A stretch of DNA of 64,000 nucleotides, from the NCBI GenBank assembly GCA_963805975.1, contig CAWDVR010000002.1, positions 640,001 through 704,000 of the forward strand, in the 5' to 3' direction. Within the stretch, counting starts at the first letter, position 1. Every line of letters begins with the position of its first letter. Shown one piece after another: positions 2,958 through 9,685 of this stretch. Position numbers and translations under genes: made by a program. The DNA comes from an uncultured Acidobacteriota bacterium. Its GTDB lineage: Bacteria > Acidobacteriota > Thermoanaerobaculia > Multivoradales > SZUA-115. The notes beneath the pieces were generated by a model. It was not told the origin of the DNA, made no database searches, and saw only the letters and a list, made by a program, of their open reading frames with translations.

Positions 2958-5834
2958 TCAGGGAATCTCCAAGCTTTGCGCAAGCATACCATCGGCCCCG
3001 GTGGCCCCCGCCCCCTCTTCGGCCCGCGCCGGCAGCCACTTGAGGAAGGCGCGCAGCTCGTCGGCCGTGGGGCTCTCGGCGCGCTCCAGGAAGGTGCCCA
3101 GCGAGCCGCAGTGCAGCAGGCTCCCGCCGTGCTCGCCGCCGCCCGGCCCGAGGTCGATCACCCAGTCGGCGCGCGCCACGAGGTCCAGGCTGTGCTCCAC
3201 CACCACCACCGTGTCGCCGCGCTGCACCAACCGGCGCAGCGTGTGGTAGAGCACGTCGATGTCGGCGAGGTGGAGGCCCGTGGTCGGCTCGTCGAAGAGG
3301 AAGAGCCGCGGCTTCTCGGAGGGCGGGCGGTCGAGGAAGCTCGCGAGCTTCAGGCGCTGCGCCTCGCCGCCCGAGAGCGTGGCCGTGGGCTGACCCAGCC
3401 GCAGGTAGCCGAGGCCCACGTCCGAGAGCAGCTTCAGGCGCCGCGCCAGCCGCTTCTGGGGAGCGAAGATCCCGGTGGCCTCCTCGACCGTCAGGTCCAG
3501 CACCTCGGAGACGTTCCGGCCCTGGTAGCGCACCGCCAGCACCTCGGGCTTGAAGCGGTGCCCCTGGCACGAGTCGCAGACCACGGTCACCGGCGCCATG
3601 AACTGCATGTCCACCTCGACCACCCCCGTGCCCTTGCACACCGGGCAGCGCCCGCGGTCGACGTTGAACGAGAAGTGCGCCGCCGTGATGCGCCGCGCCC
3701 GCGCCGCGACGGTGCCGGCGAAGAGCTTCCGGATCTCGTCGTAGGCCTTGACGTAGGTGATGGGGTTCGAGCGGCTGGAACGGCCCAGCGGCCGCTGGTC
3801 GACGAGGGTGACGTCCGCCAGGTCCGCGAGGCCCGAGAGCTCGTCCACCTCCCCGGGCTCGACGTCCACCACTCCCCGCGCGCGCTGGTAGGTGCCGTAG
3901 AGCACGTTCTCGATCAGCGTCGACTTGCCCGATCCCGACACGCCGGTGACCGCCACCAGGGTGCCGAGCGGCAGCTCGACGTCCAGGTTCTTCAAGTTGT
4001 GGGCCCTGGCGCCGCGGATCCGTACTCGTGGCCGGCCCGCCAGCTCCTCTTCCAAGGTCTCCTTGCCCTGCTCGCGGCGGAAGCGCGCCACGTGCGCGCG
4101 CGCCGGGGTGGGAACACGCTCGCGCAGATAGAGGGCGGTCAGCGACTCCTCGCACTCGAGCACCCGGTCGATCGCCCCCTCGACCATTACCCGGCCGCCG
4201 TGCTCGCCGGCCTTGGGGCCCAGGTCGATCACCCAGTCCGCGCCCTGGATCAGCGTGCGGTCGTGCTCCACCACCAGCACCGTGTTGCCGCGCGCGGCGA
4301 GGTCCGAGAGCAGGGCGAGGAGGCGTTCCGAGTCGCGTGGATGGAGGCCGATGGTGGGCTCGTCGAGCACGTAGAGCGTGCTGGTCAACCCCGAGCCGAG
4401 GGCCGCCGCGAGGTGGATGCGCTGCGCCTCGCCGCCCGAGAGCGTGCGCGCCTGGCGGTCGAGGGTCAAGTAGTCGAGACCCACGCGGGAGAGCACCTCG
4501 ACGCGCTCGGCCAGCTCTGCGAGCAGGTGGCCGGAGAGCTCGCGCTGGCGCGCCGTCCACTGCCGCGCCGCGAGCCAGGCACGGAGATCCTCGACGTTCA
4601 TCGCCGTGAGCTGCGGCAGCGTGCGGCCCTCGAGCTGCACCGCCAGGGCCTCCGGCTTGAGGCGTTTGCCCCGGCAGACCGGGCAGACCTCGTAGGCGCG
4701 GTAGCGCGCCAGCAGCACGCGCACGTGGACCTTGTAGATCCGGCCCTCGAGCCAGGAGAAGAACTTCGCGAGATTGACGAACGGGCCCTCGCCGCTCCAC
4801 ACCCACTCGCGGGCCGCGTCCGGCAGCTCTTCCCAGGGCACGTCGAGCGGCACCTTGCGCCGCCGGGCGGCCTTGTAGAGGCCGTCGTAGAGATCCTCGT
4901 AGGCGGGTGAGTTCCAGACCGCGATCGGCCGCTCGCGCAGGCTCTTCTTCGGATCCGGGACCACCCGCTCGCGGTCGACCCCGATCACCCGGCCGAAGCC
5001 CTGGCACTCGGTGCAGGCGCCGAGCGGCGAGTTGAACGAGAAGAGGGCCGGCACCGGCCGCCGCGCGGTGGCGCCGCAGGTGCCGCAGACCAGATCGGTC
5101 GCGAAGTAGCGCGCGCCGTCCGGCCCCACCGCCTCGACCCGGTTGCCGGTGAGGCGGTAGCCCTCCTCCACCGCGGCGGCGATGCGTCCCGTGCTCTCGG
5201 TCGTGGCGGTGAAACGCCCCAGGGCGAGCGGCAGCGGGTCCAAGGCCTTGCGCCAGAGAGTGCCCGGCTCCATGCGCACCACCTCGTCCCCTTCGAGCCG
5301 GCGCGCCCAGCCCTGGCGGATCAGCTCGGCCAGCGCCTGGTCCGCGTGCTTCTTGGGCCGGGGAACGCGGGCCACCACCGTGAAGCGCTCTCCCGCCTCG
5401 CCGGCCGCCAGCGCGGCCGCCGCCTCCTCCGCCGCGTAGCGCCGCAGCGGGCCGTGACCGTTCGGGCAGTGGACCTCGCCCAGGTGGGTGTAGAGCAGCC
5501 GCAGCACGTCGTGCGTCTCGGTGATGGTGCCCACCGTCGAACGCGCGTTCTTGATCGCGTTCGAGGCCGCGAGCGCCACCGCCGGGAGCACGTTGTGCAC
5601 CGCCTCGACGGGCGGGCGCTCCATCTGGTCGAGGAACTGGCGGGCGTAGGTGGACATCGACTCCACGAAACGCCGCTGCCCCTCGGCATAGATGGTGTCG
5701 AAGGCGAGAGAGGACTTGCCGGCCCCCGACGGCCCGGTCACCACGGTCACCTTGCCGTGCGGCACGCGGCAGTCGATGCCCTTCAGGTTGTGCGTGCGGG
5801 CCTTGACGACCTCGATGGCGGTAGGAGTGCGCAT
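2958..5834 (-). CDS. uvrA: Excinuclease ABC subunit A (UvrA family)
   Basis: Two ABC ATPase halves (GPSGAGKSSLAFDTIYAEGQRR, GVSGSGKST), LSGGEAQR twice, CxxC zinc fingers. Confidence 0.93.
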   Translation of the reverse strand: MRTPTAIEVVKARTHNLKGIDCRVPHGKVTVVTGPSGAGKSSLAFDTIYAEGQRRFVESMSTYARQFLDQMERPPVEAVHNVLPAVALAASNAIKNARSTVGTITETHDVLRLLYTHLGEVHCPNGHGPLRRYAAEEAAAALAAGEAGERFTVVARVPRPKKHADQALAELIRQGWARRLEGDEVVRMEPGTLWRKALDPLPLALGRFTATTESTGRIAAAVEEGYRLTGNRVEAVGPDGARYFATDLVCGTCGATARRPVPALFSFNSPLGACTECQGFGRVIGVDRERVVPDPKKSLRERPIAVWNSPAYEDLYDGLYKAARRRKVPLDVPWEELPDAAREWVWSGEGPFVNLAKFFSWLEGRIYKVHVRVLLARYRAYEVCPVCRGKRLKPEALAVQLEGRTLPQLTAMNVEDLRAWLAARQWTARQRELSGHLLAELAERVEVLSRVGLDYLTLDRQARTLSGGEAQRIHLAAALGSGLTSTLYVLDEPTIGLHPRDSERLLALLSDLAARGNTVLVVEHDRTLIQGADWVIDLGPKAGEHGGRVMVEGAIDRVLECEESLTALYLRERVPTPARAHVARFRREQGKETLEEELAGRPRVRIRGARAHNLKNLDVELPLGTLVAVTGVSGSGKSTLIENVLYGTYQRARGVVDVEPGEVDELSGLADLADVTLVDQRPLGRSSRSNPITYVKAYDEIRKLFAGTVAARARRITAAHFSFNVDRGRCPVCKGTGVVEVDMQFMAPVTVVCDSCQGHRFKPEVLAVRYQGRNVSEVLDLTVEEATGIFAPQKRLARRLKLLSDVGLGYLRLGQPTATLSGGEAQRLKLASFLDRPPSEKPRLFLFDEPTTGLHLADIDVLYHTLRRLVQRGDTVVVVEHSLDLVARADWVIDLGPGGGEHGGSLLHCGSLGTFLERAESPTADELRAFLKWLPARAEEGAGATGADGMLAQSLEIP

Positions 5835-5981
5835 GCGGCGGCTCGCCCGAAGGCAAGCCGGCTATTCTAGCTCGCGGGGTGGCACGGATTGCCGCGTCAG
5901 AGCCTTGACGACACTCTCCCCGTAAGGCAAACTGTCCTACGATCCTGAGCACGACCCGTAGCACGAGCGGGCTCCCTGTCC

Positions 5982-6227
5982 ATGACCACTCTGAGCATCC
6001 GCATCCCCACCGCCCCTAACGAGAGGCTCAGCCGTAAGGCGCGCGCCGCCCGGGTGCCTCGCTCCGTCGTGGTGCGAGACGCCCTGGCGGACTTCGTAGC
6101 GCGCAAGGAGGAGGAGAGATTCATAACGGAGCTCGTCGCCGCGGCCAAGGCGCTGGCCCGGAGCCCTACCGGGTCTCTCGCCCTCGCAGAGGAGTTCCAC
6201 CGCTCGAGAACGAGGCGTTGGACCTGA
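5982..6227 (+). pseudogene. Ribbon-helix-helix (CopG-like) antitoxin, probably frameshifted/truncated at the 3' end
   Basis: MTTLSIRIP...RSVVVRDALADFV RHH pattern. A shifted frame near 6200 reads PLENEALDL and runs directly into a PemK fragment. Confidence 0.6.
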
Positions 6228-6426
6228 CCACCCAGCTTTGGCCCGCGCTGGAGCCGATCCGCGTCAGGATCCCAGCTCGCGGGCGTCTCACACAAGACTG
6301 TCACGAGATGGTCGAGCAGGTGCGGGTCGTAGACCGCCGCCTAGGTGAGGTCCTCTCACTGTGCTGACCGCCGATGAGCTGGCAGCTCTCGGACGTAGCC
6401 TGAAGGCTGTGCTAGGTCTGCGGTAG
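6224..6426 (+). pseudogene. PemK/MazF toxin remnant (no N-terminus, internal frameshift)
   Basis: Manual translation LTTQLWPALEPIRVRIPARGRLTQDCHEMVEQVRVVDRRLGE, then shifted GPLTVLTADELAALGRSLKAVLGLR*. Resembles the C-terminal half of MazF. Confidence 0.7.
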
Positions 6427-6458
6427 TACACTGACTCCGACGCCGCGTCAGGGCACCT

Positions 6459-6959
6459 GTGGAACGAGTAGGCAAGCATCTCGCCGAGGTCGCCACTTCG
6501 AAGAGCAGCGTCGACGAGATCGACCTCTTCGCGCGCAGCGCCTTTAACCGCTTCTACTATGCCGCCTTCCTCGCCACCCGCGAGACACTACGGAAGCTGG
6601 ATGACCGTTGGAGGGAGCCCAACCATAAGGATGTTCCAGCGATTCTGCGAGGCAGAGTAGTCGACCGGGTCACAGAAGAGCTGAAGCGGCAGAGCGATGC
6701 TGGCATTCCACTCCTCCCGGGCCTGCCGCAGCTGACGCACGAGATTCACGCGGCTACCGATGCACTGGCGCAACTCCTTAAGCAAGCGTACAGCGTCCGC
6801 CGGACGGCTGACTACAAGCCGGAGGCTCGAGCGCTGAGGTCTGCGGGGATGATCATGCTTGATCAGGTCAAGCTCTCCCAGGCAGAGCATTGGCCTCGGC
6901 GCGCCAGGGCGTATGCACTGCAAATCGAGAGAGTCTATGGAAAGCTCGCGCTCCTCTAA
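6459..6959 (+). CDS. HEPN-domain protein, putative retron effector RNase
   Basis: RSAFNRFYYAAF N-terminal HEPN motif, NHKDV, and RRTADY (RxxADY-type site). First gene of the RT operon. Confidence 0.8.
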   Translation: MERVGKHLAEVATSKSSVDEIDLFARSAFNRFYYAAFLATRETLRKLDDRWREPNHKDVPAILRGRVVDRVTEELKRQSDAGIPLLPGLPQLTHEIHAATDALAQLLKQAYSVRRTADYKPEARALRSAGMIMLDQVKLSQAEHWPRRARAYALQIERVYGKLALL

Positions 6960-7698
6960 GGTCGAGGGAGTCCGCGAGCTCCTTGCGGCTAGAGGGCTCG
7001 ATTTCGTGAGCCGGATCGAACACAGCAATTCGCCCCCACCCGACCTCGTGCTCTTCGTTCCGGGTAGCCGCGTCAGCGCAGAAGCCGGGAAAGGCAAAAC
7101 GTCTCGGCGCCAACTGGCTGCGCTCGCTCGATCGATCCAGGAAAGCTTCGGCCTTACTGTGGAGTGGCTACTCTTTCAGAGCCCTGAGGACGAGACTCTC
7201 GAGCAGGATCTGAGCGCCCTTCTGGAGCACAGATTCCCAGCTACGGTCGGCCATCTCTCTGTCTCCGGGGCTGGCCTGCCGCAGCCGACCGTCTGGGTCG
7301 AGAGAGTTCCTGGTCGTAAGCCGACGATCGAGCCGGAGCAGATCCGAAAAGTCGTGGCCGAGTTCTTCGAGCTCTACCGACTCGGCTCTCCAGGCGTGGT
7401 GTTCAACGACGAAGCTCCTGAGCCGACCGGTCCGTTGATCCTTAGGGTGATCAAGCAGCATTCCCCCACGGATCCCGAGCTCTTGGAGGAGTGCCTGCGG
7501 GCAAGAGGTTTCTGGGTGCCGAAGCCCGGGGCGCTGGCAGCCAAGCTCGACCTGCTGAGGAAGAAGGGACTAGTCAGCCGGCTCGAGGATGGCTCGTATG
7601 TGCTCACGGAGGAAGCCTTGCAGATCGTCCCGCACGGTCGGTACCGCAGCAGCTCCGACATCGAGCGTGCCCTTGCTCTCGCGAAAAGGAAGTGGTAG
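6937..7698 (+). CDS. Retron-associated protein with C-terminal winged helix-turn-helix
   Basis: ATG at 6937 overlaps the HEPN 3' end. C-terminus LDLLRKKGLVSRLEDGSYVLTEEAL is a wHTH recognition helix plus wing. Confidence 0.7.
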   Translation: MESSRSSKVEGVRELLAARGLDFVSRIEHSNSPPPDLVLFVPGSRVSAEAGKGKTSRRQLAALARSIQESFGLTVEWLLFQSPEDETLEQDLSALLEHRFPATVGHLSVSGAGLPQPTVWVERVPGRKPTIEPEQIRKVVAEFFELYRLGSPGVVFNDEAPEPTGPLILRVIKQHSPTDPELLEECLRARGFWVPKPGALAAKLDLLRKKGLVSRLEDGSYVLTEEALQIVPHGRYRSSSDIERALALAKRKW

Positions 7699-7705
7699 AA
7701 GGACG

Positions 7706-7882
7706 CGAGGAATGACGGTGGAACTCTCGCGCGGGCGTGCATCACGCCCATTAGCGAAGACCGGCGAAAGAAGGTGCCTGCCCAGCGGCAGCCGCTCCTT
7801 CGAACCGCCCGCCGCTGGGCAGGCGATCGCCCTGAAAGCAGATTCAGCTTTGCTCTTCCCGTGAAACCGCCGCCATTCCTCG
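7706..7882 (+). ncRNA. Putative retron msr-msd ncRNA
   Basis: Inverted repeat CGAGGAATGACGGTGG (7706-7721) / CCGCCGCCATTCCTCG (7867-7882): 14 WC pairs, 1 GU, 1 mismatch. Hairpin GGGCGTG-cat-CACGCCC (7733-7749). Perfect 14-bp stem 7776-7789 / 7811-7824. Lies directly upstream of the RT. Confidence 0.75.
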
Positions 7883-8814
7883 TCAGCTTCCCCGACGAAA
7901 CCTCCCTCAGACAGGCTCTCACTGGCGAGTCTCAGTCCTATTGGCCGGAAGTGGAAGCGCTCCTAGAGCAACGTCTTCCGCCAGTCGTCGCCATCAGAAT
8001 CCTCGCCTGCATGTTTGGCTATAGCGCTCGTTTCGTAGGGGCTCTCCAGCGCCGCCCAGAGCGCTACTACCGCACCTTCCTAGTTCACAAAGGTAAGAAG
8101 AAGCGCGAGATCCAAGCACCAAGAGTGGCACTCAAGGTCATTCAGAAGTGGTTCGCTCACCACTTGGCGCAGGCGGTAGAGCTCGACGAGTGCGTGTTCG
8201 GCTTTGTGCCCGGGCGATCTGCCCCGCATGCGGCAGCACGCCATTGTGGAGCGAACTGGGTATACGCGATCGACCTTGCCGACTTCTTTCGATCGACGCC
8301 ACGGGAGCGCGTAGAGGCTGTGTTGCGGGATCTGGGCTACCCCTCTCATGGAGCAGACCTCGCCGCTCGCCTCTGCTGCTACGGCGACTACCTGGCGCAG
8401 GGCTCGCCAGCGAGCCCAGTGCTTTCGAACCTGGTGCTGCGCCCCTTGGATGGGAGCTTGAAGCAGATCGCCATCGACGCTGGCGCCACCTATACACGGT
8501 ACGCAGACGATCTGGTCTTCTCTGGTTCGGGCGACTTCCCAGCGGGCCTCGACGAGAGAGCTCGACAGGCGGTCGCAGAGGACGGCTGGAGGCTCGCCGA
8601 GGGCAAGGAGCATCTGGCGAAGCTTCCGCAGCGCCTCAAAGTGCACGGGCTCTTGGTGCACGGCCCACGCCCGAGGCTGACCAAAGGCTATCGAAATCGC
8701 CTGCGAGCGTTCCGGCATCTCATCGAGCACAATCGCGTCAAGGAAGAAGATCTAGGGCGCTTACAGGGGCACCTTGCGTACGCGGAGTCCGTTGAAGGCT
8801 TCAAGCCCGCGTGA
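7861..8814 (+). CDS. Retron-type reverse transcriptase
   Basis: KKREIQAP, LKVIQKW, GFVPGRS, AAARH (region X NAxxH variant), IDLADFF, LAQGSPASPVLSN, YTRYADDLVFS, LKVHGL (VTG variant). About 317 aa with no maturase/endonuclease domain. GTG 7861 preferred over 7774. Confidence 0.9.
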   Translation: MKPPPFLVSFPDETSLRQALTGESQSYWPEVEALLEQRLPPVVAIRILACMFGYSARFVGALQRRPERYYRTFLVHKGKKKREIQAPRVALKVIQKWFAHHLAQAVELDECVFGFVPGRSAPHAAARHCGANWVYAIDLADFFRSTPRERVEAVLRDLGYPSHGADLAARLCCYGDYLAQGSPASPVLSNLVLRPLDGSLKQIAIDAGATYTRYADDLVFSGSGDFPAGLDERARQAVAEDGWRLAEGKEHLAKLPQRLKVHGLLVHGPRPRLTKGYRNRLRAFRHLIEHNRVKEEDLGRLQGHLAYAESVEGFKPA

Positions 8815-8910
8815 TAGGCGACGACACCCGCACTCGACCCACCAGAAGCTCAAGCCGGCAAGTTAGCGGCACTTCTCCTTGGCCAGGACTTCGCGCTCGA
8901 CTGCACGCGC

Positions 8911-9333
8911 TCACCGAACCCTCGTGTCGCTCCCCCAGTCCTCGACTCGGAGGCCAACGACACGCAGCATGTGCTCGAGATTGGCCGTCACCAGAACCGC
9001 GCCGGTGGCGAGAGCGTGGGCCGCGATGGCGGCATCGAAGTCCTCTATGACCCGGCCCTTCTTCTCCAGCTCCGCCTTGATCGCCCCGAAGCTCTCGCTC
9101 ACCCGGTCGGTCCACTCCGCGCGAGCCAGCTCGGAACGGATCGTCTCGAACCGCTCCTCCAGTGCCTGCCTCCGCTTGGACCGCGGCAACCGCGCCAGCC
9201 CGTACGCGATCTCCGCCAGCACGGGCTGAGGCAGCGCGACATCCGCCCGGCTGACCTGCTTCAGCCGGTCGAGGAATCCGGCCTCGCCCTTCATCAGTGC
9301 CGAGACTGCGTTCGTGTCCAGGAGGTATTTCAT
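8911..9333 (-). CDS. vapC: PIN-domain VapC toxin
   Basis: YLLDTNAVS, AEIAYG, DFDAAIAAHA, LVTAN PIN motifs. Confidence 0.88.
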   Translation of the reverse strand: MKYLLDTNAVSALMKGEAGFLDRLKQVSRADVALPQPVLAEIAYGLARLPRSKRRQALEERFETIRSELARAEWTDRVSESFGAIKAELEKKGRVIEDFDAAIAAHALATGAVLVTANLEHMLRVVGLRVEDWGSDTRVR

Positions 9334-9578
9334 AGCAGTCTTGGCGGCTTCGACCGGCGCCCGGCAGCGATCGCCGCCAGCAGCTCGTCGGCCGCCTGGC
9401 CGATCTCCGCGTTCGTCGCGCTCAGCCGCTCGAAGAAACCGGGAGACCAGTCCCCACCGCCGGCCAGCTCTCGCTCCAGAGCACGGACGATGAGGCGGTT
9501 TCTGCTCACTCCGAGGTTACGGGCCCTGCGGTCCGCGGCGTCGAGCAAAGGCCGGGGAATGTGGACGCTGGTCGACAT
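9330..9578 (-). CDS. RHH antitoxin (VapB-like)
   Basis: MSTSVHIPRPLLDAADRRARNLGVSRNRLIVRALE; 4-nt overlap with vapC. Confidence 0.8.
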   Translation of the reverse strand: MSTSVHIPRPLLDAADRRARNLGVSRNRLIVRALERELAGGGDWSPGFFERLSATNAEIGQAADELLAAIAAGRRSKPPRLL

Positions 9579-9685
9579 GCCGCAAATATACTCGCAAACA
9601 TACCAAGAGCGGCAACTCTGAGCCTTGCCGAGCGCCTGTGGCAACCGGGCCAAGCCGCTCCGCGGGCCGGTGCTACCATCCGGTC

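What the first reader, a model, noticed from the sequence alone, without database searches (positions are those of the whole stretch)
7699..7884. Internal msr-msd ncRNA whose closing inverted repeat overlaps the RT's first codons
Seen: arm 7706-7721 pairs with 7867-7882. Between them lie a 7-bp hairpin (7733-7749), a perfect 14-bp stem with a 21-nt loop (7776-7824, msd-like) and a small AAAGC/GCTTT hairpin (7835-7851). The 3' arm lies just inside the probable RT ORF (GTG 7861, codons K-P-P-P-F-L), and there is no clear Shine-Dalgarno before the GTG. Inference: ncRNA folding and RT translation may be mutually exclusive on one transcript, giving autoregulation of RT:RNA stoichiometry. The sequence would be under dual coding/structure constraint. 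The branching G is not certain; G7720/G7721 are candidates.
Basis: partly seen in the sequence, partly recalled or inferred. Interest (0 to 1): 0.72.

Follow-up and report, generated by a model that had tools for sequence, protein, structure and literature searches.

The report
Retron RNA overlapping its enzyme's gene
This is a new copy of a known anti-virus system of bacteria (a type IX retron) whose template RNA is predicted to fold back onto the first codons of its own reverse-transcriptase gene in every intact relative examined, so the enzyme likely starts its DNA just in front of its own start codon; whether that limits how much enzyme is made is untested.

Summary
The locus is a type IX retron: HEPN 6459-6959, winged helix 6937-7698, ncRNA about 7706-7882, RT 7861-8814 (PADLOC HEPN_IX, HTH_IX, RT_IX; best solved relative Retron-Kva2). 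The GTG 7861 start is supported by homologues. The closing helix pairs with RT codons 3-8, and this is family-wide: in 81 of 81 loci at least 11 bp lie inside the RT reading frame. Synonymous third positions change together with their 5' partners (codon 4: 14 of 14 changes on the same tree branch), so dual coding is supported. By base-for-base mapping to Kva2, the likely branch G is G7852, opposite G7834, at the foot of the small 3' hairpin, with 8 nt between it and the GTG. The long helix is therefore likely a clamp, not the priming a1/a2 stem. Autoregulation of RT translation is plausible (start region about 9 kcal/mol harder to open, weak SD) but untested; about 0.3. Type IX retrons were solved in 2026, and ncRNA/RT overlap is described for Retron-Eco11. 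Verdict: new member of a known kind, with a useful unreported detail.

The parts
6459..6959 (+). HEPN-like RNase effector of the type IX retron (166 aa); H56 and R114 align with the positions reported catalytic in Kva2 (H64, R122)
   Evidence: PADLOC HEPN_IX E=2e-46; alignment with Kva2-class locus L109; residues from Hayashi 2026
6937..7698 (+). Winged-helix / KH-HTH accessory protein (253 aa from ATG 6937; frame open from 6859); D205, R208, K209, R215 align with Kva2/Sen3 msDNA-tip binders D197, R200, K201, R207
   Evidence: PADLOC HTH_IX E=1.9e-57; alignment; residues
7706..7882 (+). Retron ncRNA (msr-msd); ends defined by the closing helix, true transcript ends unknown
   Evidence: fold z=-4.9; 80-sequence alignment and covariation
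7706..7721 (+). 5' arm of the closing helix
7728..7756 (+). msr element: 3-bp helix 7728-7730/7754-7756 enclosing stem-loop 1 (7733-7749; equals Kva2 G18-C34, bound by the RT thumb there)
   Evidence: 99.6% and 99.5% of cells paired in 80 sequences, two-sided changes in 3 of 3 and 3 of 7 pairs; Kva2 numbering
7760..7833 (+). Predicted msd template; its reverse complement is a 74-nt msdDNA (inferred from Kva2, where nt 45-120 are copied)
   Evidence: Hayashi 2026
7776..7824 (+). msd stem-loop; 14-bp stem; conserved tip at 7797-7804 gives dT31, dG33, dA34, dG36 in the predicted DNA, the same numbers as the WH-contacting bases of Kva2
   Evidence: 14 of 14 pairs with two-sided change, 95.9% of cells paired; tip conservation; numbering
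7834..7852 (+). Stem-loop 3 (7835-7851) flanked by the likely opposing G7834 and likely branching G7852
   Evidence: G at 7834 in 74 of 80 rows; outside one 27-locus clade 53 of 53 (7834) and 52 of 53 (7852); G-blind stem search gives G...G flanks in 50 of 54; Kva2 G121/G139
7867..7882 (+). 3' arm of the closing helix, identical with RT codons 3-7 plus one base of codon 8 (dual-coded)
7861..8814 (+). Retron reverse transcriptase, 317 aa, GTG start, YADD motif
   Evidence: PADLOC RT_IX E=4e-130, next model 1.6e-62; Pfam RVT_1; PDB 36HT Retron-Kva2 RT E=1.9e-76

Best explanation
This is the non-coding RNA of a type IX (HEPN-WH-ncRNA-RT) retron, likely an anti-phage system, whose closing helix is predicted to pair with RT codons 3-8 and whose RT likely primes DNA synthesis from G7852, just upstream of its own start codon. 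Steps: (1, shown) gene order, family identity and RT start. (2, shown by comparison) the 5' arm and the first RT codons are kept complementary across the family, including at synonymous sites. (3, inferred from Kva2) the helix clamps the RNA so that stem-loop 1 docks on the RT thumb and stem-loop 3 presents G7852 opposite G7834; RT copies about 7833 back to 7760 into a DNA hairpin of about 74 nt, and host RNase H and possibly ExoVII trim it. (4, inferred from Kva2/Sen3/Yin1) RT-msDNA-WH cages the HEPN RNase; a phage nuclease or DNA-binding protein acting on the msDNA frees HEPN to cut tRNA/rRNA and arrest the cell. (5, inferred) because the primer G and the clamp lie on the RT's translation-initiation region, a given RNA molecule cannot be initiating RT translation and priming at the same moment; whether this acts as feedback control is not shown.
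For: Family. Architecture HEPN-WH-gap of 140-171 nt-RT in 80 distinct loci. Closing helix: 81 of 81 loci with at least 11 bp inside the RT frame; mean duplex -27.7 kcal/mol vs -18.2 for synonymous recodings and -14.1 for internal RT windows; p<=0.05 in 69 of 81; on average only 4% of foreign 3' arms pair better than the own arm. On a structure-blind MAFFT alignment, 14 of 16 helix pairs show two-sided changes; the third bases of window codons 4 and 5 give C-G 37 / U-A 29 / U-G 7 and U-A 37 / C-G 22. Pro codons 2-7 end in A/G in 154 of 170 vs 552 of 1106 elsewhere in the same genes; paired partners CCA:U 76, CCG:C 65, CCG:U 9. Parsimony on the RT tree: codon 4, 14 of 14 third-base changes fall on a branch where the partner also changes; codon 6, 13 of 16; codon 5, 10 of 17; codon 3, 10 of 18; 160 branches. 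Priming site: Kva2-class loci L093 and L109 reproduce the published numbering with the opposing G at nt 121 and G45-C120 giving 76 nt; 21 and 22 of 23 DNA positions checked agree with the bases I read or derived from the paper. Stem-loop 3 shows compensatory variants (AAAG/CTTT, TAAG/CTTA, AAGG/CCTT, AAAC/GTTT). Two loci not used in the statistics (L112, L085) show the same layout.
Against: RNAalifold on the 80-row alignment predicted neither the closing helix nor stem-loop 3; register shifts between subfamilies may explain it; only 75% of helix cells pair on that alignment. In this window the synonymous test is not significant (p=0.23), and stem-loop 3 costs 3.4 kcal/mol over the MFE, which instead pairs G7852 and the GTG; it has probability above 0.5 in 31 of 54 loci. 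27 of 81 loci, one clade, lack the G-flanked stem-loop 3. The Kva2 branch point is itself an inference: the sequenced DNA starts at dT6 and no G139 mutant appears in the passages read. Carabias 2026 calls the architecture canonical. Partner choice used the predicted duplex, which favours pairing; one search does not. No msDNA, RNA or defence data for this locus.
Confidence: 0.7

Rival explanations
1. The overlap is selected mainly for control: the closing helix and the branch next to the start codon shut RT translation on RNAs that are folded or primed, so RT limits its own synthesis and the RT:msDNA ratio. This adds to the best explanation rather than excluding it.
For: Opening positions -15 to +16 costs 18.4 kcal/mol on average with the 5' arm and 8.9 without; more than 2 kcal/mol difference in 76 of 81; window 17.1 vs 9.3. 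SD duplex at or below -3.5 kcal/mol in 9 of 81; GTG starts in 22 of 80. Putative branch G 8 nt before the start in 36 of 54 loci, 3-17 nt in all 54 (with L005 and L008 corrected). Type VI retrons control effector translation through ncRNA structure.
Against: The start codon is touched by the duplex in only 32 of 81. All 5 Kva2-class loci keep an SD-like AAGGA between the branch G and the ATG. WH starts also score poorly (14 of 46 at or below -3.5; starts uncertain), so weak SD is not peculiar to RT. Any helix over a start region gives a higher opening energy whether or not it regulates. No translation measurement.
Confidence: 0.3
2. Canonical layout: the long arms are the a1/a2 priming stem and a G at the inner end of the 5' arm (G7720/G7721) is the branch point.
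For: Terminal inverted repeats enclosing msr hairpins and an msd stem are the textbook layout; two of the three type IX preprints describe priming in canonical terms.
Against: G7720 and G7721 are paired; no conserved G or G-G opposition at the inner end (22 of 81; 4 of 81). Priming there would begin copying near 7865 and include stem-loop 3, giving DNA about 30 nt longer than the 70-71 nt reported for Kva2, Sen3 and Yin1 unless heavily trimmed (inference).
Confidence: 0.12
3. The DNA starts where it is sequenced in Kva2 (dT6, window about 7828) from a primer other than G7852; stem-loop 3 and its flanking Gs are an RT-binding or folding element.
For: Observed 5' ends in Kva2 are at dT6 and the 3' RNA has no density; Sen3 and Yin1 msDNA measure 71 and 70 nt in a protocol that included debranching enzyme; a 27-locus clade lacks the G-flanked stem yet keeps the msd tip.
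Against: Trimming a few bases from the branch is described for Eco7 (nucleotides 1-4 missing); G...G flanks in 50 of 54 loci match the branching/opposing G geometry; 26 of the 27 stem-less loci still keep a G at -3.
Confidence: 0.15
4. The inverted repeat is a chance by-product of a GC-rich, proline-rich N-terminus.
For: 14% of random window pairs reach the same duplex energy; window-only synonymous p=0.23.
Against: Present in 81 of 81 loci, including AT-rich ones, with repeated compensatory changes at synonymous sites.
Confidence: 0.01

Closest known systems
Type IX retron, Retron-Kva2 (Hayashi 2026, 10.64898/2026.07.14.738597; Hibshman 2026, PMC13405049; PDB 36HT)
   Same: Gene order HEPN-WH-ncRNA-RT; HEPN His/Arg pair; WH tip-binding residues; stem-loop 1 of 17 nt; msDNA tip bases at the same numbers; G-flanked stem-loop 3 with the two Gs 18 nt apart. 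In Kva2-class loci nt 173, the last base of the paper's ncRNA, falls in RT codon 6, so the overlap is implicit in its numbering (Kva2 DNA itself not seen).
   Different: Predicted msdDNA 74 vs 76 nt; GTG start 8 nt after the branch G with no SD, against ATG 15-16 nt after it with an SD-like AAGGA; RT 317 vs 327 aa; only one of the two msDNA base triples has matching bases; different subclade.
Retron-Sen3 and Retron-Yin1, type IX (Carabias 2026, 10.64898/2026.07.14.737667)
   Same: Same operon, HTH residues and msDNA tip.
   Different: That paper describes the ncRNA as canonical and does not use the words overlap, start codon or branching in its main text.
Retron-Eco11, type III-A3 (PMC12746101)
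   Same: ncRNA gene overlaps the 5' end of the RT gene through its inverted repeats.
   Different: PRTase effector; predicted canonical branch G next to the 5' repeat; the inner 11 bp suffice for msDNA.
Retron-Eco1 operon (Lopez 2021, 10.1101/2021.03.26.437017)
   Same: ncRNA in the RT 5' UTR with the RBS in or near the a2 arm; the authors note that arm changes could affect RT translation.
   Different: No statement there that the arm lies in RT codons; canonical priming.
Type VI retron Vpa2 hybrid RNA (Zhang 2025, 10.1101/2025.10.22.683967)
   Same: Retron RNA structure and a coding sequence share one transcript, with translation controlled by structure.
   Different: It is the toxin, not the RT, that is repressed, and msDNA derepresses it.

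Membership tests
Type IX retron | Retron-type RT of the type IX group | tested here: met
   RT_IX E=4e-130 vs next model 1.6e-62; best PDB hit Kva2 RT 1.9e-76 vs Ec86 RT 1.7e-25
Type IX retron | Upstream HEPN-like gene with conserved His and Arg instead of Rx4-6H | tested here: met
   HEPN_IX E=2e-46; H56 and R114 invariant in a 4-sequence alignment and aligned to positions 64 and 122 of the Kva2-class protein
Type IX retron | Second, overlapping gene for a winged-helix protein | tested here: met
   HTH_IX E=1.9e-57; overlaps the HEPN gene by 23 bp (about 8 bp is typical); tip-binding residues kept
Type IX retron | Structured ncRNA between WH and RT with msr hairpin, msd stem and conserved tip | tested here: met
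   No Rfam family matched; the published type IX covariance model was not available
Type IX retron | Production of msDNA | not testable with these tools
   needs expression; no sequencing run was listed
Type IX retron | Abortive-infection defence through HEPN cleavage of tRNA/rRNA | not testable with these tools
   shown for Kva2, Sen3 and Yin1; inferred here
Canonical retron ncRNA (a1/a2 priming) | Unpaired branching G at the inner end of the 5' repeat, opposite a G | tested here: not met
   G7720 and G7721 paired; G in 22 of 81, G opposite G in 4 of 81
Kva2-type 3' priming | Short stem-loop after msd flanked by opposing and branching G | tested here: met
   G7834 and G7852, 18 nt apart; 54 of 81 loci; absent in a 27-locus clade. 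That G7852 is the actual primer was not testable
Translation-controlling retron RNA (type VI-like) | Translation of the overlapped gene depends on ncRNA structure or msDNA | not testable with these tools
   only folding energies and SD scores

The most novel reading that the evidence does not exclude
Type IX retron RTs prime on the leader of their own mRNA: the 2'-5' branch forms at a G a few bases before the RT start codon while the first RT codons are locked in the ncRNA's closing helix. Each operon transcript would then either be translated into RT or be committed as primer and template, giving a self-limiting loop that sets RT:msDNA stoichiometry for a toxin-caging complex. The conserved proline-rich RT N-terminus would be partly written by RNA structure, and a 27-locus clade would have rewired priming to a G three bases before the start.
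Probability: 0.3. Interest if true: 0.65.

Novelty: new member of a known kind. Interest (0 to 1): 0.38.

Why it matters
The system itself is known and was solved three times in 2026. What this analysis adds is practical and testable: the type IX ncRNA needs the first RT codons. Recoding the RT, tagging or truncating its N-terminus, or cutting the ncRNA at the annotated intergenic border would likely break the RNA. The published Kva2 mutant lacking RT residues 1-39, which lost defence and was read as loss of an RT-WH contact, would also remove the 3' arm if made in the native operon (construct details not seen). If priming in the RT leader also limits RT translation, it would be a simple case of an enzyme using up its own message as primer.

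Tried and rejected
Rfam scan of 5800-9000: three miRNA-family hits at E 0.8-4, far below gathering scores; chance hairpin matches. RNAalifold consensus found only stem-loop 1, the 3-bp helix and the msd stem. Longer RT starts: the 346-aa ORF from GTG 7774 runs through the msd stem and has no support in homologues, several of which have in-frame stops before the ATG; the database protein for this window is a 267-aa form covering 84%, rejected because the N-terminal residues are conserved. Genome-collection scan with the single RT gave only 2 loci; E. coli genomes gave no match with L086 and 3 of 5426 genomes with L092. Kva2 DNA was not found, so its layout is read from L093 and L109; the Kva2 RT begins with the same 11 residues as the L093 RT. 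No promoter-like or terminator-like site in 5800-9000. Sequencing runs: none was listed, no RNA holder listed. Earlier findings of this scan: none by words or by sequence. The careful tree did not finish; the quick tree was used. Rows dropped before counting, of 108 loci: 14 distant RTs without WH/HEPN hits (L094-L106, L108), the window's own copy (L107), 7 with no WH hit (L031, L058, L063, L069, L079, L085, L088; most are cut short upstream), L024 (no intergenic gap; see noticed), and 6 duplicates; the window and L109 were added, giving 81. L055's start was set by hand to a GTA codon by position; L005 and L008 stem-loop 3 were corrected by hand. Literature searches for an earlier statement of the type IX overlap or of RT autoregulation: and word searches in the three preprints found none for type IX; figures and bioRxiv supplements could not be seen and may show it. 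No structure or complex prediction was run, since Kva2 structures exist.

Full report
Observation. Arms 7706-7721 and 7867-7882 give 14 Watson-Crick pairs, one U.G and one A.C mismatch. Between them lie a 7-bp hairpin (7733-7749), a perfect 14-bp stem (7776-7824) whose loop pairs further, and a 5-bp hairpin (7835-7851). The 211-nt region folds at -102 kcal/mol, z = -4.9, with 0 of 200 shuffles as stable. An equally good 16-nt repeat turned up in 2 of 300 random stretches of the window, but by duplex energy alone 14% of 3000 random pairs are as good, so the window alone is only moderate evidence. The 3' arm starts at codon 3 of the RT, not at the GTG.

Identity. The three flanking proteins match the PADLOC type IX retron models: HEPN_IX 2e-46, HTH_IX 1.9e-57, RT_IX 4e-130 with the next RT model at 1.6e-62. 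The closest solved RT is Retron-Kva2 (PDB 36HT, 1.9e-76; Ec86 RT 1.7e-25). HEPN H56/R114 and WH D205/R208/K209/R215 align with the residues reported as catalytic and msDNA-binding in Kva2 and Sen3 (against 11, 27, 28). The system is patchy among relatives: HTH_IX in 2 of 41 genomes, RT_IX in 2 of 151 of the class, both counts including this genome, as expected of a mobile defence cassette (inference).

RT start. The RT_IX profile aligns from residue 1. In an alignment of the window RT with 48 of the 120 listed homologues, P5 is invariant and M1 and P4 are in at least 90%. Several loci have an in-frame stop just before the ATG.

The overlap is a family trait. From 108 fetched loci, 79 distinct ones with WH and RT were kept (dropped rows listed under Tried and rejected); with the window and one E. 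coli locus that makes 81. In 81 of 81, the segment before stem-loop 1 pairs with at least 11 bases inside the RT frame, most often positions +10 to +19. Mean duplex energy is -27.7 kcal/mol, against -18.2 after synonymous recoding of codons 2-12 and -14.1 for internal RT windows; p<=0.05 in 69 of 81, but 0.23 for the window itself. On average 4% of foreign 3' arms pair better than the own arm. On a MAFFT alignment made without structure, 14 of 16 helix pairs show two-sided changes and 75% of cells pair; for the whole structure 88% of cells pair against 37-48% with slid partners. RNAalifold on the same alignment did not predict this helix; subfamilies with an extra codon or a shorter leader are out of register there. 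Proline codons 2-7 end in A or G in 154 of 170 cases against 552 of 1106 elsewhere (loci are related, so the Fisher value overstates), and the partner follows: CCA with U 76 times, CCG with C 65 or U 9. By parsimony on a quick RT tree, third-base changes share a branch with a change of the partner in 14 of 14 (codon 4), 13 of 16 (codon 6), 10 of 17 (codon 5) and 10 of 18 (codon 3) cases among 160 branches; partners there came from the predicted duplex, which leans towards pairing. Dual constraint is thus supported by repeated compensatory changes.

The branch point is likely elsewhere. G7720 and G7721 are paired, and across 81 loci the base after the inner end of the 5' arm is G in 22, with G opposite G in 4. 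Hayashi et al. [quoted passage not shown] Loci L093 and L109 belong to the Kva2 class and reproduce that numbering: opposing G at nt 121, 76-nt DNA, the same bases at nearly all positions named. The window maps onto it: stem-loop 1 is G18-C34, G7834 and G7852 are 18 nt apart like G121 and G139, and the predicted 74-nt DNA has dT31, dG33, dA34 and dG36, the Kva2 tip bases. G7834 is G in 74 of 80 rows; outside one clade the two Gs are kept in 53 of 53 and 52 of 53, and a search blind to G found G...G flanks in 50 of 54. Against this: in the window stem-loop 3 has probability 0.02 and costs 3.4 kcal/mol over the MFE (above 0.5 in 31 of 54 loci); a clade of 27 loci (support 95) lacks it; and the Kva2 assignment is inferred, with no mutant in the passages read.

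How it likely works. Shown: gene content, RT start, conserved pairing into RT codons. Inferred from Kva2, Sen3 and Yin1: RT binds stem-loop 1, primes at G7852, copies about 7833 to 7760; the DNA hairpin with WH cages the HEPN dimer; a phage nuclease or DNA-binding protein releases it to cut tRNA and rRNA. The long helix is then a clamp closing the RNA, not the priming stem. A consequence I did not find stated: the primer G sits in the RT's translation-initiation region, 8 nt before the start in 36 of 54 loci and 3-17 nt in all.

Autoregulation. Opening -15 to +16 costs 18.4 kcal/mol on average with the 5' arm and 8.9 without (window 17.1 and 9.3). An SD-like duplex at or below -3.5 kcal/mol is present in 9 of 81 RT starts against 14 of 46 WH starts, the latter uncertain; 22 of 80 starts are GTG. 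But the start codon is touched in only 32 of 81, the five Kva2-class loci keep an SD-like AAGGA, and nothing here measures translation. Physical exclusion on one molecule at one moment is likely; selected feedback is about 0.3.

Comparison with what is known. Type IX was defined by Mestre et al. 2020 (passages) and characterised in three 2026 preprints: Hayashi (parts 1, 3, 4, 5 of 7 and passages), Carabias (parts 1, 2 of 7 and passages) and Hibshman (part 1 of 6, passages, and the text of the supplementary PDF, 7 of 20 pages pictures). None uses 'overlap' or 'start codon' in its main text. Hayashi's 173-nt ncRNA would end in RT codon 6 by the mapping, so the overlap is implicit there; figures and bioRxiv supplements were not seen. 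An ncRNA overlapping the RT 5' end is stated for Retron-Eco11 (passages and section 26). Lopez 2021 notes the RT RBS in or near a2 in Eco1 (passages), and type VI retrons control effector translation by RNA structure (passages). Khan 2024 (passages and a supplement search) and the Eco7 paper (passages) were read for priming and trimming. Searches found no statement of the type IX overlap or of RT autoregulation; most subscription papers are not in the library.

Verdict. Real feature, correctly seen, in a known system: a new member of type IX retrons. The dual coding is supported and general to the family; the branch G should be moved to G7852; autoregulation stays a hypothesis. Family membership about 0.97, full best explanation 0.7, interest 0.38.

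Noticed in passing
27 loci including L002, L004, L027-L030, L035, L072 (one clade): These type IX loci lack the G-flanked stem-loop 3. Instead five bases near the msd 5' end can pair with positions -5 to -1 before the RT start, with covarying forms (GACAC/GTGTC in 10, GGCAC or GGCAT/GTGCC in 6), and 26 of 27 keep a G at -3. Their primer is unknown.
   Followed up: partly
L024:1491-1515: A type IX locus in which the WH stop is followed within 5 bases by RT codon 6: the whole ncRNA and the RT start are missing. It could be a hairpin-promoted deletion between the closing arms or an assembly artefact.
   Followed up: partly
window 5982-6423 (+): Ribbon-helix-helix / CcdA-like antitoxin ORF at 5982-6227 (Pfam RHH_1 6e-5, CcdA 4e-5), followed by broken frames that by eye resemble the C-terminal half of a MazF/PemK toxin (resemblance recalled; no Pfam hit). 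Possibly a decayed toxin-antitoxin pair just upstream of the retron.
   Followed up: partly
window 8911-9653 (-): PIN-domain gene (8911-9333, Pfam PIN 1.7e-14) with an upstream RHH gene: a VapBC-like toxin-antitoxin pair directly downstream of the retron.
   Followed up: no
window 7861-8814: The protein collection holds this RT as a 267-aa form covering 84% of it (P0001): gene callers miss the SD-less GTG start, which hides the overlap.
   Followed up: yes
Hayashi 2026, Figure 3F legend: The RT mutant lacking residues 1-39 would also lose the ncRNA's 3' arm if made in the native operon, which could confound its interpretation; construct details were not seen.
   Followed up: no
L109 (E. coli NZ_CP148034.1 3419152-3421555): A Kva2-class type IX retron sits between a replication endonuclease and a portal gene, that is, inside a prophage cargo site.
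   Followed up: no
G000:C4:585800-586042 (L108): A second, distant reverse transcriptase elsewhere in the genome, with no HEPN or WH hit nearby.
   Followed up: no
window 2958-5834 (-): UvrA-like ABC ATPase gene (958 aa) upstream on the opposite strand.
   Followed up: no
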